From Candidatus Intestinimonas stercoravium (GTDB lineage: Bacteria > Bacillota > Clostridia > Oscillospirales > Oscillospiraceae): a stretch of DNA of 32,000 nucleotides. This document shows, one piece after another, positions 3,091-25,043 of this stretch (its first letter is position 1; each line of letters starts with the position of its first letter). The stretch covers positions 1,962 to 33,961 of the forward strand of contig DWZK01000076.1 in assembly GCA_019117605.1 (NCBI GenBank), written 5' to 3'. A program made the translations under genes and the position numbers. The notes below the pieces were generated by a model, which ran no database searches, was not told the DNA's origin, and worked only from the letters and a program-made list of their open reading frames with translations.

Positions 3091-3359
3091 GAGTTTCCCT
3101 CCTCTCGGTAGCCTCTTACCAGCGCCAGACAAGACTTAAGGTCCTCATAGGCCTGTCGGTAGCTCTCCCCCTTGCCGCAGAAATCGAACTGCCACCGGGC
3201 GTAGAGCTTCACCGCCATATCCACCAGGGCATCATATGTCCCCTGTACCCCGGCAGTATCCAAATCCAGATAGGCGGCGGTGATGGTATCCTGCACTTCT
3301 CCGTCCAGTCTTTCATGGTTGATGCGGAGGGCAGTCTTCACCTCTGCCACGCCGATCAT
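3087..3359 (-). CDS. gp6-like head-tail connector protein
   Basis: MIGVAEVKTALRINHERLDGEVQDTITAAYLDL... matches the DNA-packaging/connector family pattern. ATG 3359 overlaps the capsid stop (ATGA). Confidence 0.65.
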   Translation of the reverse strand: MIGVAEVKTALRINHERLDGEVQDTITAAYLDLDTAGVQGTYDALVDMAVKLYARWQFDFCGKGESYRQAYEDLKSCLALVRGYREEGNS

Positions 3360-4570: not shown

Positions 4571-4571
4571 G

Positions 4572-9637: not shown

Positions 9638-9675
9638 AATTATTAAGACTGGTTTCAAGCCGGAAAATTATTAAG
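9638..9675. repeat. Two direct AATTATTAAG copies (9638-9647 and 9666-9675), which read CTTAATAATT on the minus strand
   Basis: Read directly from the sequence; 28-nt period in an AT-rich patch. The second copy contains the Rep stop codon. CCGGCTT also occurs twice here. Confidence 0.6.
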
Positions 9676-10477
9676 CCGGCCGCCGTCGGCCTCTATTATA
9701 GGTATACTGTCCCGGCTCCCGCTCCGGGAAGAGGAGGTACCGGGCGCCGATGCAGTCGGCAAAGCCGTAGGGGTTCTTCTCGCTGAAGGTCTCGTAGTCC
9801 ACCGCGCCCGCCGGCGGCGCCAGGGTGACGCTGTCGCTTGGAATGTCAATATATTCCACTTCATACTTCTTGAGATTGCGGGACCCCCGCCAGGTCCGCT
9901 CCCCGGGCCTGGGCCTGCCGAACTCCCTGGCCTCCTTCGTGAAGTACTTGGCCAGCTCCCGGTAATAGTGGACATCCAGGGGCTCAGCCCGGACGTAGCC
10001 TCCCCCCTGCCATAGGCTGCGAATCTCCTCCAGGTCCTCGGGCGAAGTGAAGTTGAGCACTACATGATGGTGGAGCCGCTTGTCCTCCAGTTCTCCATCA
10101 GCGTCCATCCAGTCATAGGTCCTCAGCTCATGAAAACCCTCAGTGGTGTAAATGTACCGCAGCTCCTCCCCCCTCTTTCGCCGGACCGCCCGGTAGCTCC
10201 GGACAAATTTCTGGAATATTCTGTCCGCACCCCGCTTGTCCAGCGGAAGGTGGGCGTCGTCATAGGTGAAAACAAGCACCCAGTCCCGGGCCCCAAAGTT
10301 GGCCGCAAAGGTCAACTCCAATTCCCGCCAAGAACACTTCAAGTTGTAAAACATCTGCCCCGGCGAGGTGGGACCCTGCCGCCTGCCCCGTGTCCGCCTT
10401 CCGCCGGTTTCCGGGACCTTGCCCAGCACCTCCAGGTGCAGCAGGCCCGCCGTGATGGATTTGATGCACTTGGCCAA
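9671..10477 (-). CDS. HUH-superfamily rolling-circle replication initiator-like protein
   Basis: Motif 1-like WVLVFTYDD, HUH motif LHHHVVLN, and Tyr motif ELAKYFTKE (ExxxY as in pC194-type Reps). TTG start at 10477 has AAGGAG 7 nt upstream and lies 2 nt after the upstream TAG. The track ORF's extra N-terminus (to 10855) is out-of-frame read-through. Confidence 0.7.
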   Translation of the reverse strand: MAKCIKSITAGLLHLEVLGKVPETGGRRTRGRRQGPTSPGQMFYNLKCSWRELELTFAANFGARDWVLVFTYDDAHLPLDKRGADRIFQKFVRSYRAVRRKRGEELRYIYTTEGFHELRTYDWMDADGELEDKRLHHHVVLNFTSPEDLEEIRSLWQGGGYVRAEPLDVHYYRELAKYFTKEAREFGRPRPGERTWRGSRNLKKYEVEYIDIPSDSVTLAPPAGAVDYETFSEKNPYGFADCIGARYLLFPEREPGQYTYNRGRRRPA

Positions 10478-10479
10478 AG

Positions 10480-10725
10480 CTACGCTCCTTTCCAGCTCTG
10501 CACGGCTTTTACCAAATCGGAGACCGAGGCAAAGGTCTGAATCCAGCTCATCCCCCGCGTCTCGACCCGGATCTGGACCACCATCGGGACGCCCCACACG
10601 GGAGGCGCGGCATGGGTGGTGACCGTGGCCGCCGACCCCTGCGCCTCCCGTGTCAGGGTGATCTCCCGCCGGTGGTCCATGGCCCGGCGGATCGTCCGAT
10701 AGTCCTCCTTGGTCAGCAGCTCCAT
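10480..10725 (-). CDS. Hypothetical protein (81 aa)
   Basis: ORF tightly packed against the Rep-like gene. No family recognised. Confidence 0.45.
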   Translation of the reverse strand: MELLTKEDYRTIRRAMDHRREITLTREAQGSAATVTTHAAPPVWGVPMVVQIRVETRGMSWIQTFASVSDLVKAVQSWKGA

Positions 10726-10728
10726 GGG

Positions 10729-10902
10729 CTACGTCCTGGTCTGCCGGCCGGGGCAAAGGTCCATGGTCATCTGCTCGGGCAGCTTCTCCCGGATGGAGAC
10801 CGCCCGGGCGTCGCCCAGCTGCTCCAGGGCCATGCCCAAAACCTCCTTCACACACTCTGCCGATCCCGGCGGCGCGTTTACCTGGATGGTGACGATCAGC
10901 AT
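10729..10902 (-). CDS. Hypothetical small protein (57 aa)
   Basis: GGGGAGG RBS precedes ATG 10902. Product MLIVTIQVNAPPGSAECVKEVLGMALEQLGDARAVSIRE... Confidence 0.45.
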   Translation of the reverse strand: MLIVTIQVNAPPGSAECVKEVLGMALEQLGDARAVSIREKLPEQMTMDLCPGRQTRT

Positions 10903-11946: not shown

Positions 11947-13692
11947 TCACGCCGTCCTGGCTTGGCCTTCTTCGGCCGCCGCTTTCTGGTAGGGCACCTT
12001 CGGGGTGCCGTCCTTGTTACGTTTACTGCCGCCGGCCAGCCAGGCCAGCCACGGGTCCAGGATGTCGGCATATCTGACCATCGGCATGACGGCCTGGCCG
12101 GCGTCGTTCTGATAGCCGTGGATCTGCACGATCTGATTTCCTTTCATCTCAATGGTCACCAGGGGCTTGCCGGGCCGTTTCCGGTCCCGCAGGAACAGGA
12201 TGGTGGTGCTCCCCTTGACATGTCGCTCGGCATAGCCGCCCACGCAGTGGTGCAGGGCCTTTCCCTCCGCCGTGATCTCGCCGGCGGAAACGGGTGGGCG
12301 GATCAGCCACCGCTTGGTGCTGAAGGTGTACCGGCTGACCAGCTTCTTCAGCCGTTTTTGGTATCGCTCCGAGGTCTGTTTCTCCCGGATGGTGGCGGCC
12401 GCCGCTGTGGTGCTCATGTGCCTGGCATGGAGATCCTTGGGCATGAGCCAGATGGGGTTGGTCAGATCATAGCCCAGCAGCGCGGCGTCCTCCAGGTAGT
12501 CCACCCACTCGGTGAGCAGGGTGTTGATGGACATGCGCTTCTGGCCCTTCCTGGTCTTTTCCTTCCTGGCGTAAGAGAGCAGACGGCCCGGCGTCACCTG
12601 GTACCGGACCATTTTCCCCACCAGCCGTCCCATGGTGCGTGTGCCCTCCTTGCGCAGCTCCTCCAGGTCGGCGAAGGTGACAGACATGCCCGCCCTGCGG
12701 AGCCGCTTATACCACGCCGCCATATCCAGCCTGACATCGGCGTAAGTCTTCAGCGCCAAGAAGTCCCGCAGCTCCGGTCGGCTCAGGCCAAAGGCCTTCT
12801 GCGGGTCGGTCTCCGCCCAGCGGAAGGCGTCCCGGTTCCACTTATTGTTGGCGATCAGGTCGTGGACCGCCTCCTGAAGCCCCATCTTCACCAGCATCTC
12901 CGTCTGTCTGGGCCACTGGGTACAGAGGGCCAGATAGCGGAGCAGCTCTGTGGTGTGGGGCGGCTTTGTACCGCCGTCAAAATAGGCCTCTGCCTGGCAG
13001 TAGCGGAAGGGGCTCTCCCGCAGCTCCTCCAGGTTGATGACTGTATAGGCCATCCCCTCGGCGGAGCACCAGCCAAAGGGCTCTGTCACCGGCAGCGGCA
13101 GCTTTGTGGGCGGAGCGTCCATGGACACATAGCCCGTCCAGGGATATCCGTCAAAAAGGCGGTAGGCCTTTTCGGCCAGACCAGGGATAAAGCGGTAGAC
13201 CCGCAAAAGTCGCGTCTCAGGGCGGTCGGTCAGCCGCTCCTCATCTCCGTAAGCCTTTTTGGTCTCAAAGGCCAGGGCCCACAGCGCACCTTGCCACATC
13301 CGCAGCACCACCACTCGGTACCAGGCGCACAGGTTGTCCCGCTTCCCGGTGCGCCCCAGCTCCTTGACCTTGGCTAACTTCCCGCAGATGGGACAGGCCA
13401 CCAGCTCTGGCTTCTTTGTGGGCGGCGCGCTCATAGCGCCTATGTGGCAGGTATACCCGTCCCAACGGTCCGGCTCCCGGTGGTGGGACGCCTCCATGAC
13501 GGTCCTCCAGGACTCTCCCTTCGTCTCATCGGCATGGACGTGATGCCCGCAGCAGGTGGTCCAGACCTCTCCCGTTTTCCGGACCCGGAACAGGTAGGCC
13601 GGATAGATGTCGTTGATTCGCTCCAGATCTTCGGCCCGCGGCTGCGGCGCATGCTTGGCCAGCCAGACGGCCCGCTGAACCTCTGATTGCAT
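11947..13692 (-). CDS. PcfJ-like domain protein
   Basis: C-terminal ...EGKALHHCVGGYAERHVKGSTTILFLR... matches the PcfJ-like signature as I remember it. An N-terminal Cys/His cluster is also present. ATG 13692 follows GAGGGGG. Confidence 0.7.
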   Translation of the reverse strand: MQSEVQRAVWLAKHAPQPRAEDLERINDIYPAYLFRVRKTGEVWTTCCGHHVHADETKGESWRTVMEASHHREPDRWDGYTCHIGAMSAPPTKKPELVACPICGKLAKVKELGRTGKRDNLCAWYRVVVLRMWQGALWALAFETKKAYGDEERLTDRPETRLLRVYRFIPGLAEKAYRLFDGYPWTGYVSMDAPPTKLPLPVTEPFGWCSAEGMAYTVINLEELRESPFRYCQAEAYFDGGTKPPHTTELLRYLALCTQWPRQTEMLVKMGLQEAVHDLIANNKWNRDAFRWAETDPQKAFGLSRPELRDFLALKTYADVRLDMAAWYKRLRRAGMSVTFADLEELRKEGTRTMGRLVGKMVRYQVTPGRLLSYARKEKTRKGQKRMSINTLLTEWVDYLEDAALLGYDLTNPIWLMPKDLHARHMSTTAAAATIREKQTSERYQKRLKKLVSRYTFSTKRWLIRPPVSAGEITAEGKALHHCVGGYAERHVKGSTTILFLRDRKRPGKPLVTIEMKGNQIVQIHGYQNDAGQAVMPMVRYADILDPWLAWLAGGSKRNKDGTPKVPYQKAAAEEGQARTA

Positions 13693-13705
13693 CTTTCCCA
13701 CCCCC

Positions 13706-14059
13706 TCAGAAGAAGTCGGAGAGGTCCAGCAGGATGCCGGTCTGCTGCGGCTCCACCGCCGCCGGCTCCAGCCGGATGCTCATGGTGAAGCTGACCTGGG
13801 CTCCGTCGAAGTAGAAAGACGCCGCCCGGCGGTAGGCCTCCAGATCGGAGAGGGAGCCGCCCACCCCCTTGGCCACGGCAGCCATGCAGTCCGGGAAGGA
13901 GCCGCCCTGGGCCACCGCCTGGGCGAACTCCTCGTTCTGTCGGCAGAACTCCAGGAGGGCATCCCGGACGGAAGACTTCATGACGTTCTCTTTCTGGCCC
14001 TTGACCTTGCCGTACTCGTCATTCAGGCGGGCCGACGCCTGTTCATACCAGCTGTTCAC
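13706..14059 (-). CDS. PcfK-like protein (the family that includes the Cas9 inhibitor AcrIIA9)
   Basis: About 117 aa and acidic. ...SVRDALLEFCRQNEEFAQAV...SLSDLEAYRRAASFYFDGAQV... fits the PcfK-like pattern, and the gene sits in the usual DUF3102-PcfK-PcfJ order. GTG 14059 overlaps the upstream TGA. Confidence 0.55.
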   Translation of the reverse strand: MNSWYEQASARLNDEYGKVKGQKENVMKSSVRDALLEFCRQNEEFAQAVAQGGSFPDCMAAVAKGVGGSLSDLEAYRRAASFYFDGAQVSFTMSIRLEPAAVEPQQTGILLDLSDFF

Positions 14060-15180
14060 CCCGCACACCTCCCAATGGCCTCGGCCAGAGCCTTCATAGC
14101 CTTCTCCGCCCCCTGAGCGGCAGTCTGGTCCGGGCGGCCCCGCAGCTTGAGGAGGATGCCTCTCATCTTGTTGGCCTGCTCTTGGACCTGCTGGAAGAGG
14201 ACCTTGAATGCAGCCATGTCCTCATCGGAGGAGAGCACCGCGTTTTTCCGGGCCTGTTCGGCATCCTTCAGCTGGGCCTGGGTCTGCTCCAAGGCGGCCT
14301 CGACGGCTTTGCGCTTTTCCTCAGCTTTGGCTTTGGCCTCCTTAGCCTTGTCCAGTTTGGCCTGCATCTCGGCCACAGCCTCTGCCCTGGCCTGGGCGAT
14401 GGCCTCCGGGTCCGCCACCGTCTCTACTGCCACCTCCACCGGCTGGCTTTTCAGCTCGGTGAGCTCCTGTTCCAGCCGGGCAGCCTCCTGATCGGCCCGC
14501 TCCTTCTCTGCCCGGGCCGACTCCAGCGTGGCGTTGACCACCTTCATGTCGGCCTCCATCTTTGCCCGGGCTGCCTCCGCCACGGCGGCGTCGGCCTTGG
14601 CACGCTCGGCAGCCTTCCGGGCCTCGTCCCGTTCCCGGATGGCCCGCTCCAGCTGCCTGGTGGTCATGTCCAACACATTGTTCTCCGCCAAAAACTCATC
14701 CCTGTCTTTTTCCGGCAAAGCTAAGAGCGCCAAGGCCTTGGAGGCTCCCAAATCGGCCAGCGCTGGCCGATTTGAAAGTTGCCGGTACATCTGCATGAAC
14801 CGTCTGGCGGTCCGTTCCGAATAGGACACTTTTTCGTTCAGCCAAGGCAGCCATTCACCGTGGGGCAGCATCTCCTTTGCCTCGATGAGGCACCGTCCAA
14901 TGGTGAGGATGGCCTCTCCGCCCCGGCGCTGGGCGTCCAGGATATCCTCTGTGATGACCTCGATGGTCCGCTCGGGCAGCGTCTCGTCCTCCACAGTGTC
15001 CAGCAGGGCATCCTCCGCCTGCCTCCGCTCCCCTCTGCGGCGCTCTTCTTGGTCATAGAGCTCATAGCCGGGGCGGGCGTTGTTCCTATAGTAGTCGCAG
15101 TCCAGCTCCCGGCCGGTGAAGGAACACCTTTTTTCGCACTCAGCCGAGAGGGGGCAGCGCTCATTTTTCGCCTTTTTCAT
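14056..15180 (-). CDS. DUF3102-type protein with a long Ala/Glu/Lys coiled coil
   Basis: ...IGRCLIEAKEMLPHGEWLPWLNEKVSYSERTARRFMQMY... is the DUF3102 core as I recall it. It has an N-terminal Cys cluster. ATG 15180 lies 7 nt after AGGAG. Confidence 0.7.
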   Translation of the reverse strand: MKKAKNERCPLSAECEKRCSFTGRELDCDYYRNNARPGYELYDQEERRRGERRQAEDALLDTVEDETLPERTIEVITEDILDAQRRGGEAILTIGRCLIEAKEMLPHGEWLPWLNEKVSYSERTARRFMQMYRQLSNRPALADLGASKALALLALPEKDRDEFLAENNVLDMTTRQLERAIRERDEARKAAERAKADAAVAEAARAKMEADMKVVNATLESARAEKERADQEAARLEQELTELKSQPVEVAVETVADPEAIAQARAEAVAEMQAKLDKAKEAKAKAEEKRKAVEAALEQTQAQLKDAEQARKNAVLSSDEDMAAFKVLFQQVQEQANKMRGILLKLRGRPDQTAAQGAEKAMKALAEAIGRCAG

Positions 15181-15198
15181 GGTCATGCTCCTCTCCGC

Positions 15199-18993: not shown

Positions 18994-19203
18994 TCAGCAG
19001 GCATCGGTAGCCGGCCGGATGAGGCGGATGGTCCCGTCCTGCCGGCACACCACTAGGGCGGTATCATAATCTCGATCCACGATCCGCACTGCGTTCCGGG
19101 TGACGACCTCCACGCTCCGGATCTCGTCCGGTTGGAACTGCCCTTCAAGCCACTTCCTGAGCTTGCGCTGTTCTGATGTCTGAGCGGTAAACATAGGTAG
19201 CAT
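18994..19203 (-). CDS. Hypothetical small protein (66-69 aa)
   Basis: ORF sits between two HTH genes. A GAGGAAGG RBS suggests the start may be the second ATG, at 19194. Confidence 0.45.
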   Translation of the reverse strand: MLPMFTAQTSEQRKLRKWLEGQFQPDEIRSVEVVTRNAVRIVDRDYDTALVVCRQDGTIRLIRPATDAC

Positions 19204-19209
19204 CCTTCC

Positions 19210-19443
19210 TCAACTGACACTTTTCTCCCCTGCTCTAGGCAGCTCCCGACCGTAGAGGGCATCAATGGAGCAATGGAGAGCGACCGCCAGCTGAGGAGCC
19301 AGCGACCACTTGGGGTCTGAGATCCCACGCTCCCACTTGCCTACGGCCTGCTGGCAGACACCCAGCTTCTGGGCCAGGGCGGCCTGGGAGAGCCCCTGCT
19401 GTTCCCGCAGCGTCCGGATGTTGTTTCCCACGGTTTTGATCAC
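19210..19443 (-). CDS. Cro-like XRE-family HTH regulator
   Basis: ...IRTLREQQGLSQAALAQKLGVCQQAVGKWERGISDP... First gene downstream of a consensus promoter and divergent from the repressor. Exact start is uncertain (GTG 19443 or GTG 19431). Confidence 0.75.
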   Translation of the reverse strand: MIKTVGNNIRTLREQQGLSQAALAQKLGVCQQAVGKWERGISDPKWSLAPQLAVALHCSIDALYGRELPRAGEKSVS

Positions 19444-19454
19444 CTCCGCTTCGC

Positions 19455-19468
19455 AACCTATGGTTGTT
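19455..19468. promoter_or_regulatory. Candidate operator half of an inverted pair
   Basis: CCTATGGTTGTT (19457-19468) matches the reverse complement of AACAACCATTGG (19537-19548) at 11 of 12 positions. It lies just downstream of the lytic -10. Confidence 0.45.
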
Positions 19469-19477
19469 TACATGGCC

Positions 19478-19506
19478 ACTATATCACTACTTTTAGTTGC
19501 TGTCAA
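19478..19506 (-). promoter_or_regulatory. Early lytic promoter (sigma-70 type)
   Basis: On the minus strand: TTGACA (19506-19501), a 17-nt spacer, then TATAGT (19483-19478). Confidence 0.7.
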
Positions 19507-19527
19507 CCCCTTTTTGTGTCCTTCCTA

Positions 19528-19556
19528 TTGCTTACAACAACCATTGGTAGTATAGT
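19528..19556 (+). promoter_or_regulatory. Repressor (lysogeny) promoter
   Basis: TTGCTT (19528-19533), a 17-nt spacer, then TATAGT (19551-19556), 24 nt upstream of ATG 19580. Confidence 0.65.
19537..19548. promoter_or_regulatory. Candidate operator inside the spacer of the repressor promoter
   Basis: AACAACCATTGG is the partner of the 19457-19468 site. It has internal dyad ACCA/TGGT. Confidence 0.45.
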
Positions 19557-19579
19557 TTGGGGTGAAAGGGGGTGAACGC

Positions 19580-20203
19580 ATGTTCGGTCAACGTCTGAAA
19601 GCCCTGCGCGCAGTCCATCAGATCTCCCAGAAAGACCTTGCGTCGCAGTTGTTTGTGAGCCCACAGGCTGTTGGAAAGTGGGAACGTGAGGAGGCCACTC
19701 CTAACCCGGAGACAGTACGCAAGCTCTCCGAACTTTTCGATGTCTCCGCCGACTACCTGTTGGGCCGGGAGATGAGCCCGAACGTAAGCCCCGCGTCCCA
19801 CACGCTGCGGGTCCCGGTGCTGGGCGTGATCCAGGCCGGAGTGCCCATGGACGCCATTGAGGACATCCTGGACTGGGAGGAGGTCCCCGCCTCCTGGGCC
19901 AGCGGAGGCCGGGAGTACTTTGGCCTGCGGGTGAAGGGGGACAGCATGTACCCCAAGTACCTGGAGGGGGACACGGTGATCCTGCGCAGGGACAGCATCT
20001 GCGACAGCGGCGACGACTGCGCGGTGCTGGTCAACGGCGACGCAGCTACCCTGAAGCAGGTGCTCCTGCGGGAGGACGGCGCGGTGGAGCTGCGCCCGGT
20101 GAACCCCACCTATCCGCCCCGCACCTACTCCCCCGCTGAAGTGGAGTCCCTGCCGGTGCAGGTTATCGGCGTAGTGGTGGAGCTGCGCCGTAAAATTAAA
20201 TAA
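19580..20203 (+). CDS. CI/LexA-like phage repressor (XRE HTH plus S24 self-cleaving peptidase domain)
   Basis: N-terminal ...ISQKDLASQLFVSPQAVGKWEREEATP... C-terminal ...YFGLRVKGDSMYPKYLEGDTVILRRD...DCAVLVNGDAATLKQV... gives the Ser/Lys dyad context of S24 peptidases. AAGGGGG RBS precedes ATG 19580. Confidence 0.85.
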   Translation: MFGQRLKALRAVHQISQKDLASQLFVSPQAVGKWEREEATPNPETVRKLSELFDVSADYLLGREMSPNVSPASHTLRVPVLGVIQAGVPMDAIEDILDWEEVPASWASGGREYFGLRVKGDSMYPKYLEGDTVILRRDSICDSGDDCAVLVNGDAATLKQVLLREDGAVELRPVNPTYPPRTYSPAEVESLPVQVIGVVVELRRKIK

Positions 20204-20209
20204 AAACGA

Positions 20210-20226
20210 TGTCCAAGTCGGACACC
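20210..20226. repeat. Palindromic box TGTCCAAGTCGGACACC, copy 1
   Basis: Lies between the repressor stop (20203) and the exonuclease start (20246). Nearly identical to the box at 21843-21861. Confidence 0.6.
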
Positions 20227-20245
20227 GGATGTCAGGAGTGCTTTT

Positions 20246-21205
20246 ATGGAGCTGTTCGACTTTGTGGCGGTGGACTTTGAGACCGCCACACGCCAATACA
20301 ACAGTGCCTGTTCCATCGGAATTGCCGCCGTGAAAGACGGAGAAGTCGTCGAAAACTTCTACTCCTTGATCCAGCCTCCAAACCTGGAATTTGAACCGGA
20401 TAATATCCAGATTCACGGTATTACGCCGGAGATGGTCAAAAATGCACCAACATTTGATGATGTCTGGCCCAATATCCAGAAGTTCTTCGGTCCTCACCTT
20501 GTAATCGCCCATAATGCCCGGTTTGATATGCTGGTATTGAAACATTCTCTGGGCTGGTTCCGCCCGGAAGATTTTCACTATGTGGACTCTGTATCCATTG
20601 CGAAGGACTTCGTTCCCGGCAGCAAATCTCTCGCACACTGCGTCCAACATTTCGGTATTGAAATGGGATGTCACCACAATGCTCTGGATGACGCCCTTGC
20701 CTGTGCCAATGTGGTACAGTGCTGTCTGAATGCCTCTGACGCCAAAAACATCGGTCAGCTCTGCTTTTCTCAGCCCAATATCAAGATCCATTTGTTTTCT
20801 GAGCTGTCTGATTCGGAGCGAGAGTTCAGCACCCGGAAGAAATCCTCAACGCCGGTTTGGAAACGGACCTCCGCCGTCCGACCGGCCGATATTACCCCTT
20901 GTACCGACTCATTCTGCTGTGCACATCCGCTCTACCAGAAGAACATCGTGTTCACCGGCGAACTGTCCATAGACCGGGCCGTCGCCATGCAGATGGCCGT
21001 GGATGTGGGAGCAGTGGTCAAATCCGGTGTCTCCGGGAAAACCGACTATCTGGTGGTGGGAACGCAGGATCTGGCGTTGGTGGGCGCGGACGGTATGAGC
21101 AGCAAAGAGGAAAAGGCCTATGCCCTGAATCAGACGGGCAAGGCACACATCAAGATCATCCGCGAACAGGAGTTCATCGACCTGGTTCGCGCCGTGGAGG
21201 TTTGA
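20246..21205 (+). CDS. DEDDh (DnaQ/epsilon-like) 3'-5' exonuclease fused to a C-terminal BRCT domain
   Basis: ExoI VAVDFETA, ExoII IAHNARFDMLVL, ExoIII HHNALDDALACANV. C-terminal IVFTGELS..DRAVAMQMAVDVGAVVKSGVSGKTDYLVVG is a ligase-type BRCT pattern. CAGGAG RBS lies 7 nt before the ATG. Confidence 0.8.
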   Translation: MELFDFVAVDFETATRQYNSACSIGIAAVKDGEVVENFYSLIQPPNLEFEPDNIQIHGITPEMVKNAPTFDDVWPNIQKFFGPHLVIAHNARFDMLVLKHSLGWFRPEDFHYVDSVSIAKDFVPGSKSLAHCVQHFGIEMGCHHNALDDALACANVVQCCLNASDAKNIGQLCFSQPNIKIHLFSELSDSEREFSTRKKSSTPVWKRTSAVRPADITPCTDSFCCAHPLYQKNIVFTGELSIDRAVAMQMAVDVGAVVKSGVSGKTDYLVVGTQDLALVGADGMSSKEEKAYALNQTGKAHIKIIREQEFIDLVRAVEV

Positions 21206-21208
21206 GCT

Positions 21209-21739
21209 TTGGAAGGACAAATTTCTTTGACCGACCTTTCCACCCGGCCGGAGGCCCAGGAGCTGGCCTGGCTAGAGGACGCCATGCCCGCCATGCGCAC
21301 CGCCGTGAAGAACCGCGGTGGTATCCCGGATCTGCTGGTGCGCAGCGCCGTCAAGTCCTACACTGCGGTGTTGTTCTGTAACTTCACCGTATTCCGCCTT
21401 CGTCTGCGGGGAAAGCAGCCCAGCATTGCGGTCCCCCTGCTCTTCTCCGACCTGCTTCCGGAGGGCGCCCCCCAGAAACGGGTGAGCTCTGAGCCGAAGT
21501 ATATCCGTCTTTTGATCGACGCGGAACATCCCATTGACTTCTATGCCCCCTTCCTCGCTCAAATCGCGGGAGCCACGGTGGACCGCTATCCCAAGGAGTG
21601 GGACTGCTGCTCCCGCTATCTGGAGTGCAGCAACGCCGGCAGCTGTACCCACCCGGACAAGGCCTTTGCCATGCAGTGCGGCTACCGCAAGATCCTGAGC
21701 AGCGGGCGCATTTTCTTCGGCGAAAAGCGGAACGTGTGA
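21209..21739 (+). CDS. Uncharacterised protein with a C-terminal Cys cluster, translationally coupled to the exonuclease gene
   Basis: TTG 21209 lies 8 nt after GGAGG (21196-21200) and 3 nt after the exonuclease TGA. C-terminus reads ...WDCCSRYLECSNAGSCTHPDKAFAMQCGYRKILSSGRIFFGEKRN. No family name recalled. Confidence 0.55.
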   Translation: MEGQISLTDLSTRPEAQELAWLEDAMPAMRTAVKNRGGIPDLLVRSAVKSYTAVLFCNFTVFRLRLRGKQPSIAVPLLFSDLLPEGAPQKRVSSEPKYIRLLIDAEHPIDFYAPFLAQIAGATVDRYPKEWDCCSRYLECSNAGSCTHPDKAFAMQCGYRKILSSGRIFFGEKRNV

Positions 21740-21842
21740 CAGAGTTCATGAAGTTCAAAAACCGGGAGCCGTACAAGAACTGTTTGATGCCGTTCTCGCC
21801 CGTAGCCTCACCCCCTGTGCAAAGTAAATCCACGACTGAACC

Positions 21843-21861
21843 GGTGTCCAAGTTGGACACC
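21843..21861. repeat. Palindromic box GGTGTCCAAGTTGGACACC, copy 2
   Basis: Perfect 9+1+9 palindrome, 24 nt upstream of the MNT start codon. Confidence 0.6.
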
Positions 21862-21884
21862 ACCACACTGGAAAGGAACCTGCT

Positions 21885-22184
21885 ATGCCCATCCATCTCC
21901 CTGACGATCTGGTCACACAGCTGCCTGCCCTGGCCCGGAAATACGGCGCCCAGCGGCTGGTGCTGTTCGGCTCCCGGGCCCGGGGCGACCACCGCCCCCG
22001 CAGCGACATCGATCTGGCTATTTATGATATGCCGGAGGAGAACCGGGGGGGCTTCTGGCTGGAGGTCGAAGAACTTCCCACCTTGCTGAAATTTGACCTT
22101 GTCCACATCTCTCCCGGCATGGATCCCGTATTCCTCGGCAACATCGAAAAGGACGGTGTGACGCTCTATGCTTCAGAAGATTGA
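21885..22184 (+). CDS. Minimal nucleotidyltransferase (MNT / MntA-like antitoxin)
   Basis: ...LVLFGSRARGDHRPRSDIDLAI... is the GSxxxG...DxD nucleotidyltransferase core. 99 aa. Overlaps the downstream HEPN gene by 17 nt. Confidence 0.8.
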   Translation: MPIHLPDDLVTQLPALARKYGAQRLVLFGSRARGDHRPRSDIDLAIYDMPEENRGGFWLEVEELPTLLKFDLVHISPGMDPVFLGNIEKDGVTLYASED

Positions 22185-22668
22185 AAACTATAAACGCGCT
22201 CTGGCGCAGCTGGAGGAAGCCGTCAAACGCTACCGGCAATCTCCGGAGGATACACTGTACCGGGACGGTCTGATCCAACGCTTTGAGTTTACTGTAGAAC
22301 TGGCCTGGAAGTCCATGAAGGAATATCTGGAGGACCAGGGCATGGTCCTCTCCATCGCCTCCCCCCGCGGGATCCTGAAAGAAGCCTACGCCGCTGGTGC
22401 CCTCGAGGATGGCGACCAGTGGAACAAGATCCTGACCGCTCGTAATTTAACTTCCCATGTCTACGATGAGGCCACAGCATCTAACATCGCGCAGCAGATC
22501 TGCGCGGAGTTTCTGGACCCGTTACAAGCTCTCATGCACTTGTATGAGGGAGAACAGACGACCCCCTTCGATTCCGCCGTCGATCAGGCACACCTGCGCC
22601 AGACTATTGCCGGCCTGGACGCTGGAAACGGTTCGCCCTACAAGCTGAGCGAGACGGAGCATAAGTAA
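22168..22668 (+). CDS. HEPN-domain protein, HI0074 / nucleotidyltransferase substrate-binding family (HepT-like toxin)
   Basis: N-terminal ...NYKRALAQLEEAV..., plus ARNLTSHVYD, which contains the Rx4H HEPN motif. At 166 aa it has about 30 extra C-terminal residues. Confidence 0.75.
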   Translation: MLQKIENYKRALAQLEEAVKRYRQSPEDTLYRDGLIQRFEFTVELAWKSMKEYLEDQGMVLSIASPRGILKEAYAAGALEDGDQWNKILTARNLTSHVYDEATASNIAQQICAEFLDPLQALMHLYEGEQTTPFDSAVDQAHLRQTIAGLDAGNGSPYKLSETEHK

Positions 22669-22672
22669 AAGA

Positions 22673-22692
22673 GCCGGGGCTGCGGCCCCGGC
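22673..22692 (+). terminator. Stem-loop after the HEPN gene
   Basis: GCCGGGGC-TGCG-GCCCCGGC, followed by CTTTAAAAG. The T-tract is weak. Confidence 0.45.
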
Positions 22693-22749
22693 CTTTAAAA
22701 GTCCATTTATCGAACACTTGTGCTGTTTGTCGAAGCGGGAGGTGTTACT

Positions 22750-24237
22750 ATGGACGCTGCCCAATACCTGCGCAAGTCCCGGATGGAGGAGGGCATGGAC
22801 ACAGAGGAAGTGCTCGCCAAGCACCGGAAGGCTCTGGCGGAGTACGCCGCCGCCCACGGGGTCCATATCATCGAGACCTACTACGAGGTGGTCAGCGGCG
22901 AGAGCCTGTACGCCCGTCCGGAGATGCTGCGGCTCCTGGAGGACGTGGAGGACGGGAAGTATGATGCCGTACTAGTGATGGACCTGGACCGTCTCTCCCG
23001 CGGCCGTATGAAAGACCAGGGCATCATCCTGGACGCCCTTCGGGAGTCTGGCACTCTCATCATCACCCCGGAGAAGACCTACGATCTCTCCGACGATCTG
23101 GATGACGAGATGGCGGAGTTCAAGACCTTTATGTCCCGCCGGGAGTACAAGATCATCAATAAGCGCCTGCGCCGTGGTCTGCGTCAGACCATCCAAGAGG
23201 GCTGCTATGTGGCCAACGCCCCTTACGGCTACCGGAAGGTCACTGTAGACCGCAAGCCCACCCTGGAGATCGTAGAGGAGGAGGCCAAGTTCGTCCGTAT
23301 GATGTACGAGATGTATGTGGACGGATTCGGATGCGTCTCCATAGCCCGCCACGTCAACTCCCTGGGGGCAAAGCCCCGCCGGACCGACGCTTTCAGCAGG
23401 AACTCCGTGGCCAATATCCTGAAGAACCCAACATATATCGGGAAGATCGTATGGGACCAGAAGAAGCACATCCGTAAGGGCAGCAGAGGCAACCCGAAGC
23501 ACATCACCATCTACCAGCCTCGGGAGCAGTGGACCATCGTGGATGGTATCCATCCCGCCATCGTTTCCAAGGAGCTCTACGAGAAGGCCCAGGCGGTCAT
23601 GGCTGGCCGCTATGTCCCAGCCTCCAATGATGGCACCGTCCGGAGCCCCTTGGCCGGCCTGGTCCGCTGTGCCAACTGCGGACACCACATGCAGCGCATG
23701 GCGGTAGGCACCAAACAGCCCTACCTTCTGTGCAACACCCCCGGCTGCTGCGCCAGCGCTAAGTTCGACCTGGTAGAGCAGGCCATCCTAGACCACCTAG
23801 CCAAGCTCTTGGCAGAGCTTTCCGTGAGCAGGCCGGCGGCGGAAGTCAAGGGGACGGACTACCAGGAGGCCCGATTAGAGACGCTTCGGAAGGAAGCTGC
23901 CGCCGCTGAAGTGCAGAAAGGGCGGCTCTATGATCTGCTGGAGCAGGGCGTTTATGATGTAGCCACTTTCCGGGAACGTATGGAGAAGGTGAAGGCCCGG
24001 ATCTCTTTCCTGGAGCGGGAGAGCTCCTCTCTACAGCGGACCATTCAGGCCGCGCGGCAGCTGGACCCGCAGATCCTTGCGGCCCGGATCCGCGCGGTGC
24101 TGGATGCCTATCAGGAGTCGGACCCGGCCCATCGGAACGCTCTGCTCCGTAGCGTCTTCGACGTAGTGTGGTACACCAAAGAGAAGAAGACCAAGCCTAC
24201 CGACTTCATCCTTCGATTTGACCTCAATCCCAACTGA
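22750..24237 (+). CDS. Large serine recombinase (phage integrase)
   Basis: N-terminal resolvase-type catalytic region AQYLRKSRMEE...DAVLVMDLDRLSR. Recombinase and zinc-ribbon region (CANCGHHM...LLCNTPGC) and a C-terminal coiled coil follow. GGGAGG RBS precedes ATG 22750. Confidence 0.85.
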   Translation: MDAAQYLRKSRMEEGMDTEEVLAKHRKALAEYAAAHGVHIIETYYEVVSGESLYARPEMLRLLEDVEDGKYDAVLVMDLDRLSRGRMKDQGIILDALRESGTLIITPEKTYDLSDDLDDEMAEFKTFMSRREYKIINKRLRRGLRQTIQEGCYVANAPYGYRKVTVDRKPTLEIVEEEAKFVRMMYEMYVDGFGCVSIARHVNSLGAKPRRTDAFSRNSVANILKNPTYIGKIVWDQKKHIRKGSRGNPKHITIYQPREQWTIVDGIHPAIVSKELYEKAQAVMAGRYVPASNDGTVRSPLAGLVRCANCGHHMQRMAVGTKQPYLLCNTPGCCASAKFDLVEQAILDHLAKLLAELSVSRPAAEVKGTDYQEARLETLRKEAAAAEVQKGRLYDLLEQGVYDVATFRERMEKVKARISFLERESSSLQRTIQAARQLDPQILAARIRAVLDAYQESDPAHRNALLRSVFDVVWYTKEKKTKPTDFILRFDLNPN

Positions 24238-24287
24238 CCGGCGGCCCTTTCCCTATCTGCCGGATGCCGGATATTATTAGTTTATAA

Positions 24288-25043
24288 AGTGCTATATCTT
24301 CCGATAAGGACTGCATCGAGGACCTGCGCTTCTACCCCACTCAGAGCTCCCAGTGCGCCATCGACCGCGCCATCAGCGTGAAGGCCGGGAAAGCCGAGCT
24401 GCTCTATGTGTACATCGACGTGGAGCCGGTGGGCTTCAACCGGGGCTTCTTCACTGTGGACGTCCGCTATTTCTACCGGGTCACCGCCGACGCCTTCGTG
24501 GGCGCCGCCCGGCCGGTGGAGATCAGCGGCCTGTGCGTCTTTGACAAGCGGGTCATCCTCTTCGGCAGCGAGGGGAACGCCAAAGTCTTCACCTCTCAGA
24601 CCTCCCTGGAGAGCCTGGGCGAGCAGGAGCTCCGCTGCACCAACCTCCCCACCGCCGTGGTAGAGGCCGTGGATCCGATCATCCTGGGGATGAAGCTGGT
24701 AGACGTATGCGAGTGCCGTCCCTGCGACTGCGAGCTCACCGAGATCCCCCCCTGTATCTGCTCCTGCTTCGGCAGCGACCTCAGCTTCGGCAGCGAGGGG
24801 AAGCGGGTATATGTCACCCTGGGCCAGTTCTCTCTGATCCGCCTGGAGCGCGAGACCCAGCTCCTTATCCCCGCCTATGACTACTGCATGCCCGAGAAGG
24901 AGTGCACCTGCGGCGGCTGTGAGGACGATCCCTGCGAGATCTTCCGCCAGGTGAAATTCCCGGTGGATGAGTTCTTCCCCCCCAACAGCCTCCACAGCGG
25001 CGGCTGCGGCTGCAATATCCCTGAGCCCGGCTGCTGCAAGTGA
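24288..25043 (+). pseudogene. 3' portion of a Cys-rich host gene, apparently split by the prophage
   Basis: The frame is open from just after TAA 24285-24287 and reads SAISSDKDCIEDLRFYPTQSSQCAIDRAIS before the first possible start (GTG 24378). That start has no RBS. The protein-like upstream stretch contains no ATG, GTG or TTG. Confidence 0.55.

What the first reader, a model, noticed from the sequence alone, without database searches (positions are those of the whole stretch)
20204..21739. Lysogen-expressed gene pair: DEDDh exonuclease-BRCT fusion coupled to an unknown Cys-cluster protein (candidate new phage-borne system)
Two genes sit in the classic cargo slot between the prophage repressor and the integrase. 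They are on the same strand as both, so they should be expressed in the lysogen.

Gene 1 has all three DEDDh exonuclease motifs (DFET, HNARFD, HNALDD) and a ligase-type BRCT domain.

Gene 2 starts at a TTG 3 nt after the gene 1 stop, with GGAGG 8 nt upstream. This implies translational coupling and probably a complex. It ends in a CC-x5-C-x5-C-x-H...C cluster that could bind zinc or an Fe-S centre. I cannot assign it to any named family.

A nuclease joined to a DNA-end or phosphoprotein-recognition module, plus a metal-cluster partner, in a prophage accessory slot is the pattern seen for superinfection-exclusion and anti-phage cargo. I know of no described defence system with this composition.
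Basis: partly seen in the sequence, partly recalled or inferred. Interest (0 to 1): 0.7.

Follow-up and report, generated by a model that had tools for sequence, protein, structure and literature searches.

The report
Prophage exonuclease-BRCT gene with dedicated Cys-rich partner
A gut-bacterium prophage carries, in the operon that stays on during dormancy, a DNA-trimming enzyme and a previously undescribed cysteine-rich partner protein; the two travel together or fused in many related prophages, which makes them a real two-part system whose function, most likely protection of the lysogen, is untested.

Summary
Gene 1 (20246-21205) is an intact DEDDh 3'-5' exonuclease with a C-terminal BRCT domain. 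Gene 2 (21209-21739, TTG start, GGAGG 8 nt upstream) belongs to an unnamed family with no Pfam, NCBIfam, PHROG, PADLOC or PDB sequence match.

New here:
- Gene 2 is a dedicated partner. In 64 of 64 informative non-redundant loci it lies beside an Exo/BRCT gene, and 30 of the 150 best family representatives are natural Exo-(BRCT)-G2 fusions.
- It has a confidently modelled alpha/beta domain (weak YjbR/MotA-CTD-like matches) and a 50-residue domain with five invariant cysteines.
- The usual context is repressor, then pair, then integrase. In sibling prophages that slot holds other cargo, including PD-Lambda-1, toxin-antitoxin pairs and lipoproteins.
- Exo-BRCT alone is not defence-specific. It also occurs in housekeeping neighbourhoods, and without gene 2 in Staphylococcus aureus and pneumococcal phage lysogeny modules.
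- A 17-bp palindrome brackets the cassette.

A lysogen-expressed cargo system is well supported. A defence function is plausible (about 0.4) but unproven. I rate it a new variant of a known kind, interest 0.58.

The parts
19562..20203 (+). CI/LexA-like prophage repressor (HTH_3 + Peptidase_S24). It is the first gene of the lysogeny operon that carries the pair.
   Evidence: Pfam Peptidase_S24 3.8e-23 and HTH_3 7.8e-12. PHROG 4 transcriptional repressor 6.9e-40.
20209..20225 (.). Left copy of the 17-bp junction palindrome (ATGTCCAAGTCGGACAC), 20 nt before the gene 1 ATG.
   Evidence: There are two sites in the window against 0.02 expected by chance. The same motif recurs at cassette junctions in related prophages.
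20246..21205 (+). Gene 1: DEDDh 3'-5' exonuclease (aa 7-156, nt 20264-20713), a variable basic linker, and a BRCT domain (aa 228-313, nt 20927-21184).
   Evidence: NCBIfam PRK06195 matches full length at 245 bits, below its cutoff of 373. PADLOC PDC-S48 1.3e-35.
21196..21200 (+). GGAGG ribosome-binding site for gene 2, lying inside the end of gene 1.
   Evidence: Read from the sequence. It is 8 nt before TTG 21209.
21209..21739 (+). Gene 2 (called G2 here), 176 aa. The N-terminal alpha-beta5-alpha domain is aa 14-126 (nt 21248-21586). The C-terminal five-Cys domain is aa 127-176 (nt 21587-21736).
   Evidence: The family has 1251 representatives at E<=1e-3 and matches no named family.
21844..21860 (.). 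Right copy of the junction palindrome (GTGTCCAAGTTGGACAC, perfect), 24 nt before the MNT gene ATG.
21885..22668 (+). Neighbouring cargo in the same slot: an MntA-like nucleotidyltransferase (21885-22184) and an HI0074/HepT-like HEPN protein (22168-22668).
   Evidence: The same Exo-BRCT/G2/MNT/HEPN set is present in L106-L109.
22672..22693 (.). Strong GC-rich hairpin after the HEPN gene, the likely end of the repressor-cargo transcription unit.
   Evidence: Minimum free energy -25.6 kcal/mol, z -3.25. A TTT run follows on the + strand.
22720..24237 (+). Large serine recombinase (integrase) at the prophage end. The true start may be ATG 22751, which has GGAGG at 22738.
   Evidence: Pfam Resolvase, Recombinase and Zn_ribbon_recom. 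Sequence read.

Best explanation
Genes 20246-21205 and 21209-21739 form one cargo cassette of a temperate Oscillospiraceae phage.

**What is shown**
- The cassette lies in the repressor operon, so it is positioned to be made in the lysogen.
- Gene 1 is an active-site-intact DEDDh 3'-5' exonuclease tethered to a BRCT domain.
- Gene 2 (G2) is its dedicated partner.
- G2 has a confidently modelled alpha/beta domain. Its structural matches to double-wing or YjbR-like folds are weak.
- G2 also has a 50-residue domain with five invariant cysteines.

**What is inferred**
- The cysteines hold Zn or an Fe-S cluster.
- G2, with or through the BRCT domain, directs or gates the exonuclease on nucleic-acid 3' ends that appear when foreign DNA enters, for example cos or pac ends of a superinfecting phage.
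- The lysogen is thereby protected, while the integrated prophage and the circular chromosome offer no free ends.
- The exonuclease head is exchangeable: two divergent exonuclease types occur, an optional helical module can be inserted, and sometimes there is no exonuclease at all. BRCT + G2 is the more constant core.
For: **Functional link between the two genes**
- An Exo/BRCT partner is adjacent in 64 of 70 non-redundant loci. The six exceptions are three contig edges and three proteins that carry only the Cys domain.
- Of the 150 best family representatives, 30 are fusions. All 30 are fused to Exo (25 also to BRCT), in both orders, and none to any other domain.

**Active enzyme**
- The DEDDh residues are conserved in all partner exonuclease domains.

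**Lysogen expression**
- The pair is on the same strand as the repressor and the integrase.
- The hairpin between CI and gene 1 is no better than shuffled sequence on the + strand (z 0.19). A strong hairpin appears only after the HEPN gene.

**Cargo or defence-type slot**
- In 22 viral contigs whose integrases are 61-76% identical to the window's, the slot content varies.
- One contig carries PD-Lambda-1 there (4.8e-120). Others carry RelB/YoeB-like pairs, lipoproteins and Zn-ribbon membrane proteins.
- The window and L004 carry toxin-antitoxin pairs in the same slot.

**Modular shuffling, typical of conflict genes**
- L012 versus L013: G2 98%, BRCT 66%, Exo 25% identity.
- The window's exonuclease part is about 53% GC against 63% for the window.

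**Other support**
- PADLOC candidate PDC-S48 hits gene 1 and the partner proteins.
- One chromosomal copy lies next to an EcoRV restriction-modification system.
- G2 is basic (pI 8.8, family median 8.2), with an invariant or near-invariant FRLRLRGKQ strand. Weak structural matches to the putative DNA-binding YjbR and the T4 MotA C-terminal domain have probabilities of 0.75-0.98.
- Precedent: prophage-borne DEDDh exonucleases with auxiliary domains defend against phages (TONDOs, PMC13344964).
Against: - No experiment exists, and G2 matches no PADLOC model.
- Ten other cargo proteins from the same slot gave no PADLOC hit, so the slot is not purely a defence slot.
- Stand-alone Exo-BRCT homologues sit in housekeeping neighbourhoods. 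One such enzyme is a replication proofreader (PMC11348249).
- Some G2 pairs lie beside lepA, mnmG or clpB with no mobile-element genes nearby.
- BRCT proteins occur in the slot without G2 (L084, L088, L090, L098; phi2958PVL and IPP44).
- AlphaFold2 of a natural fusion gave pTM 0.49, and the Cys domain fold differed between the two models.
- Structural matches for the G2 N-domain have E-values of only 0.01-0.2.
Confidence: 0.4

Rival explanations
1. DNA-maintenance accessory. The pair is a phage-borne version of the bacterial Exo-BRCT trans-acting proofreader or 3'-end-trimming repair exonuclease. G2 acts as a metal-cluster adaptor. The benefit would be lower mutation or less 3' ssDNA in the lysogen, for example damping RecA activation and hence spontaneous induction of the S24-type repressor encoded just upstream.
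For: - Gene 1 matches PRK06195 'DNA polymerase III subunit epsilon' over its full length (245 bits).
- Mycobacterial DnaQ has the same Exo+BRCT architecture and is an additional proofreader whose BRCT domain is essential (PMC11348249).
- A 50%-identical stand-alone homologue lies in a core neighbourhood.
- Some pairs lie beside lepA, mnmG or clpB.
- Exo-BRCT directly follows the repressor in unrelated Firmicute phages, which hints at a link with repressor biology.
Against: - The PRK06195 and PRK06063 scores are far below their family cut-offs.
- No clamp-binding motif is conserved in the linker or at the C-terminus.
- The pair occurs equally with S24-type repressors and with HTH+ImmA repressors.
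- The distribution is patchy and mosaic, and the slot is variable. This fits accessory cargo better than a fidelity function.
- Variants lacking any exonuclease (helical module-BRCT + G2) exist.
Confidence: 0.25
2. Protection of the prophage from being cured. The 3'-5' exonuclease degrades incoming single-stranded transforming or conjugative DNA, which enters 3' end first in Gram-positive bacteria. Homologous recombination therefore cannot replace the prophage with an empty site.
For: - The pair is positioned for expression in the lysogen.
- The same Exo-BRCT position is seen in prophages of the naturally competent S. pneumoniae.
- The 3'-5' polarity matches the entry polarity of transforming DNA. 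This last point rests on established knowledge of Gram-positive transformation, not on a tool result.
Against: - The idea is purely inferential.
- Competence is not known for most Oscillospiraceae hosts.
- S. aureus phages carry the enzyme too, although transformation is rare there.
- It does not explain G2.
Confidence: 0.1
3. Addiction or toxin-antitoxin-like module. The exonuclease is a toxin held in check by G2 (or the reverse), and this stabilises the prophage.
For: - The genes are small, tightly coupled and adjacent, and they lie next to bona fide toxin-antitoxin pairs: MNT/HEPN in the window and RelB/YoeB in L004.
- BRCT proteins can occur without G2, but G2 almost never occurs without them.
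Against: - Thirty independent stable fusions in both orders are unusual for toxin-antitoxin pairs.
- Exo-BRCT alone is widespread and evidently tolerated, in housekeeping loci and in phage lysogeny modules without G2.
- G2 has no HTH or other antitoxin-type domain.
Confidence: 0.07
4. Chance neighbours or mis-called ORFs: gene 2 is not a real gene, or it is unrelated to gene 1.
For: None was found. The only weak point is the TTG start.
Against: - The family has 1251 representatives with a conserved length and a shared start column.
- AlphaFold2 gives a confident model, pLDDT 81.
- Synteny and fusions are consistent across loci.
Confidence: 0.01

Closest known systems
Mycobacterial DnaQ (Exo + BRCT), the additional replication proofreader (PMC11348249)
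   Same: Same two-domain architecture: an N-terminal DEDDh exonuclease and a C-terminal BRCT domain of about 90 aa. [quoted passage not shown]
   Different: - The mycobacterial protein has a C-terminal clamp-binding motif. None is conserved here.
- NCBIfam PRK06063 scores 76 bits against a cutoff of 389.
- It is chromosomal and housekeeping, and it has no G2 partner.
PADLOC candidate PDC-S48 (PDLC05027/05028), an untested single-gene 'phage defence candidate'
   Same: The exonuclease of gene 1 and of all tested partners matches profile positions 4-184 (1e-30 to 1e-42). The helical module + BRCT of the L004 variant matches positions 234-377.
   Different: - Gene 1 lacks the middle helical module.
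- The candidate is defined as a single gene and does not include G2.
- No experimental validation was found, and no paper mentions it in the searched library.
TONDO / ISG20-like DEDDh exonucleases (PMC13344964)
   Same: They are DEDDh exonucleases carrying an auxiliary domain of unknown function, encoded in prophages and mobile elements. They give nuclease-dependent phage defence.
   Different: - They act on 3' UTRs of RNA phages.
- Their auxiliary domains are fused and are not BRCT (the word BRCT does not occur in the paper).
- No separate partner gene is described.
- Sequence relationship to gene 1 was not tested.
Exo-BRCT genes in lysogeny modules of Staphylococcus phage phi2958PVL (gp05, annotated 'DNA ligase') and Streptococcus phage IPP44 (IPP44_00002, 'exonuclease')
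   Same: They are 31-34% identical over 97-98% of gene 1, and occupy the same position: just downstream of the repressor, same strand, before the integrase.
   Different: - No G2 homologue occurs in any of 50,697 deposited phage records.
- No function is reported for these genes.
YjbR/MmcQ, YdhG (DUF1801), DUF5655 and the T4 MotA C-terminal 'double-wing' domain
   Same: The G2 N-domain (aa 14-126, pLDDT above 90) has the same alpha-beta-alpha sandwich. Foldseek probabilities are 0.75-1.0 and TM-scores relative to the target reach 0.60.
   Different: - E-values are only 0.01-0.2.
- There is no sequence-level match, even at Pfam E<=5.
- None of these families carries the five-Cys domain.
Lysogen-expressed exclusion genes co-transcribed with the repressor (lambda rexAB, the ltp and sie genes of dairy streptococcal and lactococcal phages)
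   Same: Same genomic logic: accessory genes between or beside the repressor and the integrase, expressed in the lysogen. This comparison rests on my own knowledge of these systems.
   Different: The proteins are unrelated and the mechanisms are different (membrane-based).

Membership tests
DEDDh (DnaQ-like / RNase_T, PF00929) exonucleases | Exo I (DxE), Exo II (D) and Exo III (Hx4D) motifs in an RNase H-like fold | tested here: met
   D10/E12, D94 and H144/D149 are present. Pfam RNase_T 4.4e-21 scores above its cutoff.
BRCT domain (PF00533) | Profile match above the gathering score | tested here: met
   29.2 bits against a cutoff of 21.3, aa 228-313.
NCBIfam PRK06195 'DNA polymerase III subunit epsilon' equivalog | Whole-protein score at or above the curated cutoff (373 bits) | tested here: not met
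   245.5 bits over the full length. Gene 1 is a relative, not an equivalog.
Mycobacterial-type DnaQ proofreader (PRK06063) | Score at or above 389 bits | tested here: not met
   76 bits.
Mycobacterial-type DnaQ proofreader (PRK06063) | Clamp-binding motif | tested here: inconclusive
   No motif is conserved across partner linkers or C-termini by inspection. No dedicated motif model was run.
Mycobacterial-type DnaQ proofreader (PRK06063) | Interaction with the replicase | not testable with these tools
   Needs co-immunoprecipitation or a multimer prediction with the host PolC, DnaE and clamp.
PADLOC PDC-S48 candidate | Full-length match to the 411-position profile (Exo + helical module + BRCT) | tested here: inconclusive
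   Gene 1 scores 121 bits. The best stretch covers profile positions 5-174 only, and a second stretch is not shown. The middle module is absent from gene 1.
PADLOC PDC-S48 candidate | Demonstrated anti-phage activity | not testable with these tools
   The candidate itself is unvalidated, and no paper was found.
Any catalogued defence system containing G2 | G2 matches a PADLOC model | tested here: not met
   No PADLOC hit at E<=0.1. DefenseFinder was not available.
YjbR/MmcQ (PF04237) or DUF1801/DUF5655 | Sequence-profile match | tested here: not met
   No Pfam hit for G2 aa 1-128 even at E<=5.
YjbR/MmcQ (PF04237) or DUF1801/DUF5655 | Shared fold | tested here: inconclusive
   Foldseek against 2fki gives probability 0.98 and target-normalised TM 0.60, but E 0.12. 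Against DUF5655 it gives probability 1.0 and E 0.017.
Fe-S or Zn-binding domain | Four or more invariant Cys ligands | tested here: met
   Five invariant Cys in 40 + 44 sequences.
Fe-S or Zn-binding domain | Bound metal and its identity | not testable with these tools
   Needs anaerobic purification, UV-visible or EPR spectroscopy and ICP-MS. The spacing CC-x5-C-x5-C-x10-C matches no motif I could name.
Type II toxin-antitoxin pair | Toxicity of one partner, neutralised by the other | not testable with these tools
   The only indirect evidence is against it: frequent fusions and tolerated stand-alone Exo-BRCT.

The most novel reading that the evidence does not exclude
BRCT + G2 is the sensing and targeting core of a previously undescribed two-component immunity system, sometimes fused into one protein, in gut Clostridia prophages. 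A new five-Cys metal-cluster domain and a double-wing-like domain recognise an invader-specific nucleic-acid end, or a redox or damage signal. They then switch on exchangeable heads, either two DEDDh exonuclease types or a helical module. The same five-Cys domain is reused in a second cassette type together with a SWIM zinc-finger protein. Cassettes are swapped between phages at a conserved 17-bp palindromic junction.
Probability: 0.3. Interest if true: 0.75.

Novelty: new variant of a known kind. Interest (0 to 1): 0.58.

Why it matters
- Oscillospiraceae are abundant and poorly tractable human-gut bacteria, and almost nothing is known about what their prophages express in the lysogen.
- The G2 family is large: 1251 representatives at 50% identity. 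One prophage carrying the cassette was indexed in 97 blocks of the assembly collection, with human-gut metagenomes among the records shown.
- The partner enzyme, Exo-BRCT, also sits next to the repressor in PVL-converting S. aureus phages and in pneumococcal prophages, and no function has been assigned to it there.
- Establishing what the pair does would annotate thousands of 'hypothetical' genes and define a new cysteine-cluster domain.
- It would also show either a new nuclease-based immunity mechanism or a new way for prophages to tune host DNA metabolism or induction.
- The conserved junction palindrome offers a handle on how lysogeny-module cargo is exchanged.

Tried and rejected
- **Sequence-family searches of G2.** Pfam (also at E<=5 on each half), NCBIfam, PHROGs, PADLOC and a PDB profile search all found nothing.
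- **Foldseek of the G2 model** against PDB and BFVD gave only weak alpha/beta-sandwich matches and nothing for the Cys domain.
- **Profile of the Cys domain alone** against the 5.8-billion-protein set returned only short fragments, so it gave no census of domain architectures.
- **G2 and the cassette DNA** against deposited phages and plasmids gave no match.
- **AlphaFold2 of a natural fusion** to test domain packing gave pTM 0.49, which is inconclusive. A richer alignment (A3) had to be dropped because MAFFT misplaced the stand-alone G2 rows.
- **'BRCT co-evolves with G2 while Exo does not'** has only weak support. Mantel r is 0.37 against 0.26, and BRCT is also swapped in some pairs (L001 versus L017). 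I therefore do not claim a BRCT-G2 interface.
- **A clamp-binding motif in the linker** is not conserved.
- **The hairpin at 20207-20227 as a + strand terminator** is rejected. It scores -8.6 kcal/mol, z 0.19, and is terminator-like only on the minus strand.
- **Rfam scan of 19000-24600** found nothing.
- **Literature searches** for BRCT + DEDDh + prophage, PDC-S48, and BRCT + anti-phage found nothing relevant.
- **PADLOC on ten other slot cargo proteins** gave no hits.
Full report
**1. The observation**

Gene 1 runs 20246..21205 on the + strand (319 aa, ATG start, AGGAG at 20234-20238). It carries DFET at aa 10, HNARFD at aa 89 and HNALDD at aa 144. Pfam places RNase_T at aa 7-156 (E 4.4e-21) and BRCT at aa 228-313 (E 1.1e-6), both above their gathering scores.

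The gene 1 stop TGA (21203-21205) is followed by GCT and then TTG at 21209. GGAGG lies at 21196-21200. Gene 2 (21209..21739, 176 aa) has the pattern C133-C134-x5-C140-x5-C146-x-H148...C157.

The neighbours are as stated. A CI/LexA-like repressor (HTH_3 + Peptidase_S24) is at 19562..20203, and a large serine recombinase is at 22720..24237, both on the + strand. The window is a prophage. It has TerL at 6367-8025, portal at 5107-6357, capsid at 3356-4666, and DnaB and a replication initiator on the minus strand.

I add two points:
- An MntA-like/HEPN pair (21885..22668) shares the slot.
- Genes 1 and 2 are in the same frame, separated only by TGA GCT.

**2. Gene 2 is a real gene of a large, unnamed family**

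A search of the 5.8-billion-protein set returned 114 clusters, all 148-191 aa. None has a Pfam domain, and the only name given is 'hypothetical protein [Caudoviricetes sp.]'. A profile search of the 1.84-billion representative library found 1251 proteins at E<=1e-3 and 770 at E<=1e-10.

All homologues start at the same alignment column, which confirms the TTG start. The five cysteines are invariant in 40 full-length sequences and in 44 diverse Cys-domain segments. So are W131 and D132 in the close family, and S141, Y159, L163, G166 and G171. H148 is not invariant.

G2 has no hit in Pfam, NCBIfam, PHROGs or PADLOC, nor in PDB by sequence profile, even when each half is scanned at E<=5.

**3. 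Structure of G2**

AlphaFold2 with 40 sequences gave mean pLDDT 81 and pTM 0.68. Residues 14-126 form a very confident alpha-beta5-alpha sandwich, with pLDDT 92-98 per block. Residues 127-176 are modelled poorly, with pLDDT 49-75.

Foldseek found no match below E 0.01. The best matches for the N-domain were:
- YjbR, 2fki: probability 0.98, target-normalised TM 0.60;
- a YdhG-like protein, 9t2w: probability 0.96;
- the DNA-bound C-terminal domain of T4 MotA, 5jlt: probability 0.75;
- type III secretion chaperones;
- in the viral library, a DUF5655 protein and phage G gp76.

I read the N-domain as a YjbR/double-wing-like sandwich with low certainty.

G2 is basic (pI 8.8, family median 8.2). It carries a nearly invariant FRLRLRGKQ strand. 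Both are compatible with nucleic-acid binding, but that remains an inference.

The Cys domain came out helical in one model and as beta strands in the fusion model. Its fold is therefore unknown. Five invariant Cys argue for a Zn or Fe-S site, which cannot be decided by computation.

**4. The two genes are one functional unit**

I gathered 83 loci that encode a G2 relative:
- 10 from exact-protein look-ups;
- 50 from one genome per species;
- 23 from IMG/VR.

I annotated them with HMMs built in-session for the Exo, BRCT, G2, integrase, DnaB, S24 and M78 domains.

After removing duplicates, 70 loci remain:
- 64 have an Exo and/or BRCT protein directly beside G2. In 63 it is on the same strand, usually 3-50 nt away or overlapping. 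L058 is divergently oriented.
- Three of the other six have G2 at a contig edge.
- The last three (L057, L059, L083) are different proteins that share only the Cys domain.

So 64 of 64 informative loci show the pairing. The order is usually Exo-BRCT then G2. It is reversed in L004, L034, L049, L051, L071 and L078.

Independent support comes from fusions. Of the 150 best representatives, 30 are long proteins in which the G2 domain is fused to Exo (25 also to BRCT), in both orders. None is fused to anything else.

The DEDDh residues are conserved in every partner, so the enzyme is under selection to stay active.

AlphaFold2 of a natural fusion (P0297) modelled each domain well (pLDDT 85). Its pTM was only 0.49, so a fixed domain arrangement is not predicted. 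The G2 part of that alignment was shallow, so this neither supports nor excludes a stable interface.

**5. Modularity**

The partner protein comes in several forms:
- Exo-BRCT, with at least two exonuclease types that are only about 25-30% identical;
- Exo-helical module-BRCT;
- helical module-BRCT with no exonuclease, as in L004, L015, L023, L026, L027, L031 and L041.

The helical module has repeated DG..(x)..E motifs. They look TerB-like to the eye, but the module has no Pfam match.

Parts are exchanged between near-identical cassettes:
- L012 versus L013: G2 98%, BRCT 66%, Exo 25% identity.
- Window versus L011: G2 92%, BRCT 85%, Exo 26%.
- In the window, the exonuclease part has about 53% GC against 63% overall.

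BRCT can also be swapped (L001 versus L017: G2 84%, BRCT 32%). The correlation of G2 with BRCT (Mantel r 0.37) is only modestly above that with Exo (0.26). I therefore do not claim that BRCT is the docking site.

The Cys domain is itself mobile:
- It is fused directly to Exo-BRCT without the sandwich domain (L054).
- It is fused to Exo without BRCT (L082).
- It lies at the N-terminus of unrelated 225-272 aa proteins (L057, L059, L083). In L057 and L059 a SWIM zinc-finger protein follows, again between an HTH/ImmA regulator and a serine integrase.

**6. Genomic context**

The typical arrangement runs, left to right:
- DnaB and early genes on the minus strand, then a Cro-like HTH;
- on the + strand, a repressor (an S24 fusion, or HTH + ImmA/M78), then Exo-BRCT, then G2;
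- optional further cargo, then a serine or tyrosine integrase.

An integrase lies within 5 kb downstream on the same strand in 40 of 51 loci that have at least 3 kb of downstream sequence. Hosts named in the records are Flavonifractor, Pseudoflavonifractor, Colidextribacter, Oscillibacter, Dysosmobacter, Acutalibacter and other Oscillospiraceae and Clostridia.

One prophage with the same Exo-BRCT/G2/MNT/HEPN/integrase set was indexed in 97 blocks of the assembly collection.

To test whether the slot is a cargo slot, I fetched 22 viral contigs whose integrases are 61-76% identical to the window's. Their slot contents were:
- one has the pair;
- three have helical module-BRCT without G2;
- one has Exo-BRCT without G2;
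- the rest have lipoproteins, Zn-ribbon membrane proteins, bacterial-PH proteins, RelB/YoeB-like and DUF4160/DUF2442-like pairs;
- L086 has a protein that matches the validated defence gene PD-Lambda-1 at 4.8e-120.

Ten other cargo proteins gave no PADLOC hit. The slot therefore holds variable lysogenic-conversion cargo, some of it defensive.

A minority of pairs lie in chromosomal settings with no mobile-element genes in view:
- after lepA (L044);
- near mnmG (L038);
- near clpB, divergently oriented (L058);
- between hpt and a Zn-ribbon/PH protein, Band_7 and an EcoRV restriction-modification system (L008).

**7. Expression signals**

Between the CI stop and gene 1 there are 42 nt. The hairpin there is no better than shuffled sequence on the + strand (-8.6 kcal/mol, z 0.19). 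It looks like a terminator only for the minus strand.

The first strong structure is at 22672-22693, after the HEPN gene (-25.6 kcal/mol, z -3.25). TTT follows it on the + strand. The simplest reading is one transcription unit, CI-gene1-gene2-MNT-HEPN, with the integrase transcribed separately. This is inferred, not shown. No + strand promoter was picked up by the consensus scan.

**8. Exo-BRCT is not by itself a defence marker**

- Gene 1 matches NCBIfam PRK06195 ('DNA polymerase III subunit epsilon') over its full length, but below the cutoff (245 against 373 bits).
- It matches PHROG 192 'DNA polymerase exonuclease subunit' at 1e-41.
- More than a thousand relatives exist, named 'exonuclease', 'DNA polymerase III subunit epsilon' or 'putative exonuclease with a BRCT domain'.
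- A 50%-identical stand-alone homologue sits among znuABC, fur, a peptidase, metG and secA.
- In mycobacteria an Exo-BRCT protein is an additional replication proofreader whose BRCT domain is essential (PMC11348249).

On the other side of the ledger:
- tblastn against deposited phages found Exo-BRCT in 74 records. In S. pneumoniae phage IPP44 and S. aureus phage phi2958PVL it lies immediately downstream of the repressor and before the integrase, without G2. I found no function reported for it.
- PADLOC's untested candidate PDC-S48 covers Exo + helical module + BRCT and hits all tested partners.
- A 2026 preprint shows that prophage-borne DEDDh exonucleases with auxiliary domains (TONDOs) protect against RNA phages (PMC13344964).

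**9. The junction palindrome**

The pair is bracketed by a 17-bp palindrome: ATGTCCAAGTCGGACAC at 20209-20225 and GTGTCCAAGTTGGACAC at 21844-21860. These are the only two sites in 32 kb, against a chance expectation of 0.02.

The same motif, allowing up to 3 mismatches, occurs at 73 non-redundant places in the fetched loci. About 50 of them, counted by eye, are intergenic in lysogeny modules. The usual layout is a stop codon and an A-rich run, then the palindrome, then 5-25 nt, then the ribosome-binding site and start of the next gene. It occurs in sibling prophages that lack the pair as well.

Of 63 pair-bearing loci, 22 have the motif beside the pair and 8 have it on both sides. Only 3 have it inside the span of partner and G2 domains. 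In just one of these (L004) does it lie between G2 and its partner. In L027 and L073 it separates an extra upstream exonuclease ORF from the partner gene. This supports treating gene 1 + gene 2 as a single cassette. It also suggests a junction used for cassette exchange, regulation or RNA processing, but its role is untested.

**10. Mechanism and verdict**

Shown:
- an intact exonuclease-BRCT enzyme;
- a dedicated, co-inherited and often fused partner, made of a confidently modelled sandwich domain and a five-Cys domain;
- a location in a variable, repressor-linked cargo slot of temperate phages.

Inferred:
- expression in the lysogen;
- metal binding by the five Cys;
- nucleic-acid binding by G2;
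- a protective role.

My ranking of explanations:
- **Best (0.4):** a lysogen-expressed nuclease system that attacks 3' ends of incoming nucleic acid, with G2 and BRCT as targeting or gating parts.
- **Main rival (0.25):** a DNA-maintenance role, either proofreading and 3'-end trimming or tuning of induction.
- **Minor rivals:** blocking of transforming DNA (0.1), and a toxin-antitoxin-like addiction module (0.07).

- the pair is syntenic elsewhere;
- it is mostly in prophage lysogeny modules, not housekeeping neighbourhoods;
- G2 matches no characterised family.

The enzyme is a new member of a known family. The partner domain family and the pairing are undescribed. I rate the finding a new variant of a known kind, with interest 0.58.

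Noticed in passing
window 20209-20225 and 21844-21860; also L012 7000 and 8584, L015 1255 and 2780, L032 6877 and 8366, L091 5484, L094 6134 and 6962: A 17-bp palindrome, GTGTCCAA-N-TTGGACAC, marks cassette junctions in the lysogeny modules of these Oscillospiraceae prophages. It occurs at 73 non-redundant places, usually just after a stop codon and an A-rich run and 5-25 nt before the next gene's ribosome-binding site. It is also present in prophages that lack the pair. About 20 further copies lie inside a conserved minus-strand coding region upstream. Its function is unknown: recombination linker, operator or RNA processing site.
   Followed up: partly
L057 7911-8687 and 8722-9633; L059 6694-7371 and 7378-7782; L083 7989-8807: The five-Cys domain also occurs at the N-terminus of unrelated 225-272 aa proteins. 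In L057 and L059 a SWIM zinc-finger protein follows, in the same slot between an HTH/ImmA regulator and a serine integrase. This may be a second cassette type built on the same domain.
   Followed up: partly
L004 6639-7556; L084 5667-6593; L088 5262-6188; L090 5502-6434: These are BRCT proteins in which the exonuclease is replaced by a helical module of about 200 aa with repeated DG...E motifs. The module looks TerB-like by eye but has no Pfam match. The proteins occur with G2 (L004) or without it (L084, L088, L090). The same module is inserted between Exo and BRCT in other partners, and it matches positions 234-377 of PADLOC PDC-S48.
   Followed up: partly
window 21885-22184 and 22168-22668: An MntA-like nucleotidyltransferase and an HI0074/HepT-like HEPN protein (type VII toxin-antitoxin-like) overlap by 17 nt and share the cargo slot. 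The same four-gene set, Exo-BRCT, G2, MNT and HEPN, recurs in a widespread gut prophage (L106-L109).
   Followed up: partly
L086 5215-6549: A sibling prophage whose integrase is 72% identical to the window's carries a PD-Lambda-1 homologue (PADLOC 4.8e-120) in the same slot between ImmA and the integrase.
   Followed up: yes
L113 3495-4418 (Streptococcus phage IPP44); L114 4004-4924 (Staphylococcus phage phi2958PVL gp05): Exo-BRCT genes 31-34% identical to gene 1 lie directly downstream of the repressor and before the integrase in pneumococcal prophages and PVL-converting S. aureus phages. They are annotated 'exonuclease' or, wrongly, 'DNA ligase'. No G2 is present and no function is reported.
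   Followed up: partly
window 20246-20900 versus the rest: The exonuclease half of gene 1 has about 53% GC against 63% for the window. Its nearest cassette relative (L011, Flavonifractor sp. An92) has 92%-identical G2 and 85%-identical BRCT but only 26%-identical Exo. This looks like a recent swap of the exonuclease head.
   Followed up: yes
window 21203-21211: Genes 1 and 2 are in the same frame, separated only by TGA GCT. Read-through of the stop would therefore give a fusion like the natural ones. The same-frame arrangement also holds in L012 and L013 but not in L014 or L016, so it may be chance.
   Followed up: partly
window 22672-22693 and 22738-22753: A strong GC-rich hairpin (-25.6 kcal/mol, z -3.25) separates the cargo genes from the integrase. 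The integrase probably starts at ATG 22751 (GGAGG at 22738-22742) rather than at GTG 22720, the first start codon of the ORF.
   Followed up: partly
window 11947-13701 (-), 14056-15186 (-), 9671-10855 (-): The prophage early and middle region encodes a PcfJ-like protein (4.8e-37), a DUF3102 protein (8.7e-28) and a weak REP_ORF2-G2P-like replication-associated domain (2.5e-7). I did not examine them further.
   Followed up: no
L001 6584-6976; L084 6630-6944; L086 6556-6894; L089 5906-6313: A coiled-coil protein of 104-135 aa ending in ...LKKAQ recurs just upstream of the serine integrase in many of these prophages, with or without the pair. It might be an integrase-associated factor.
   Followed up: no
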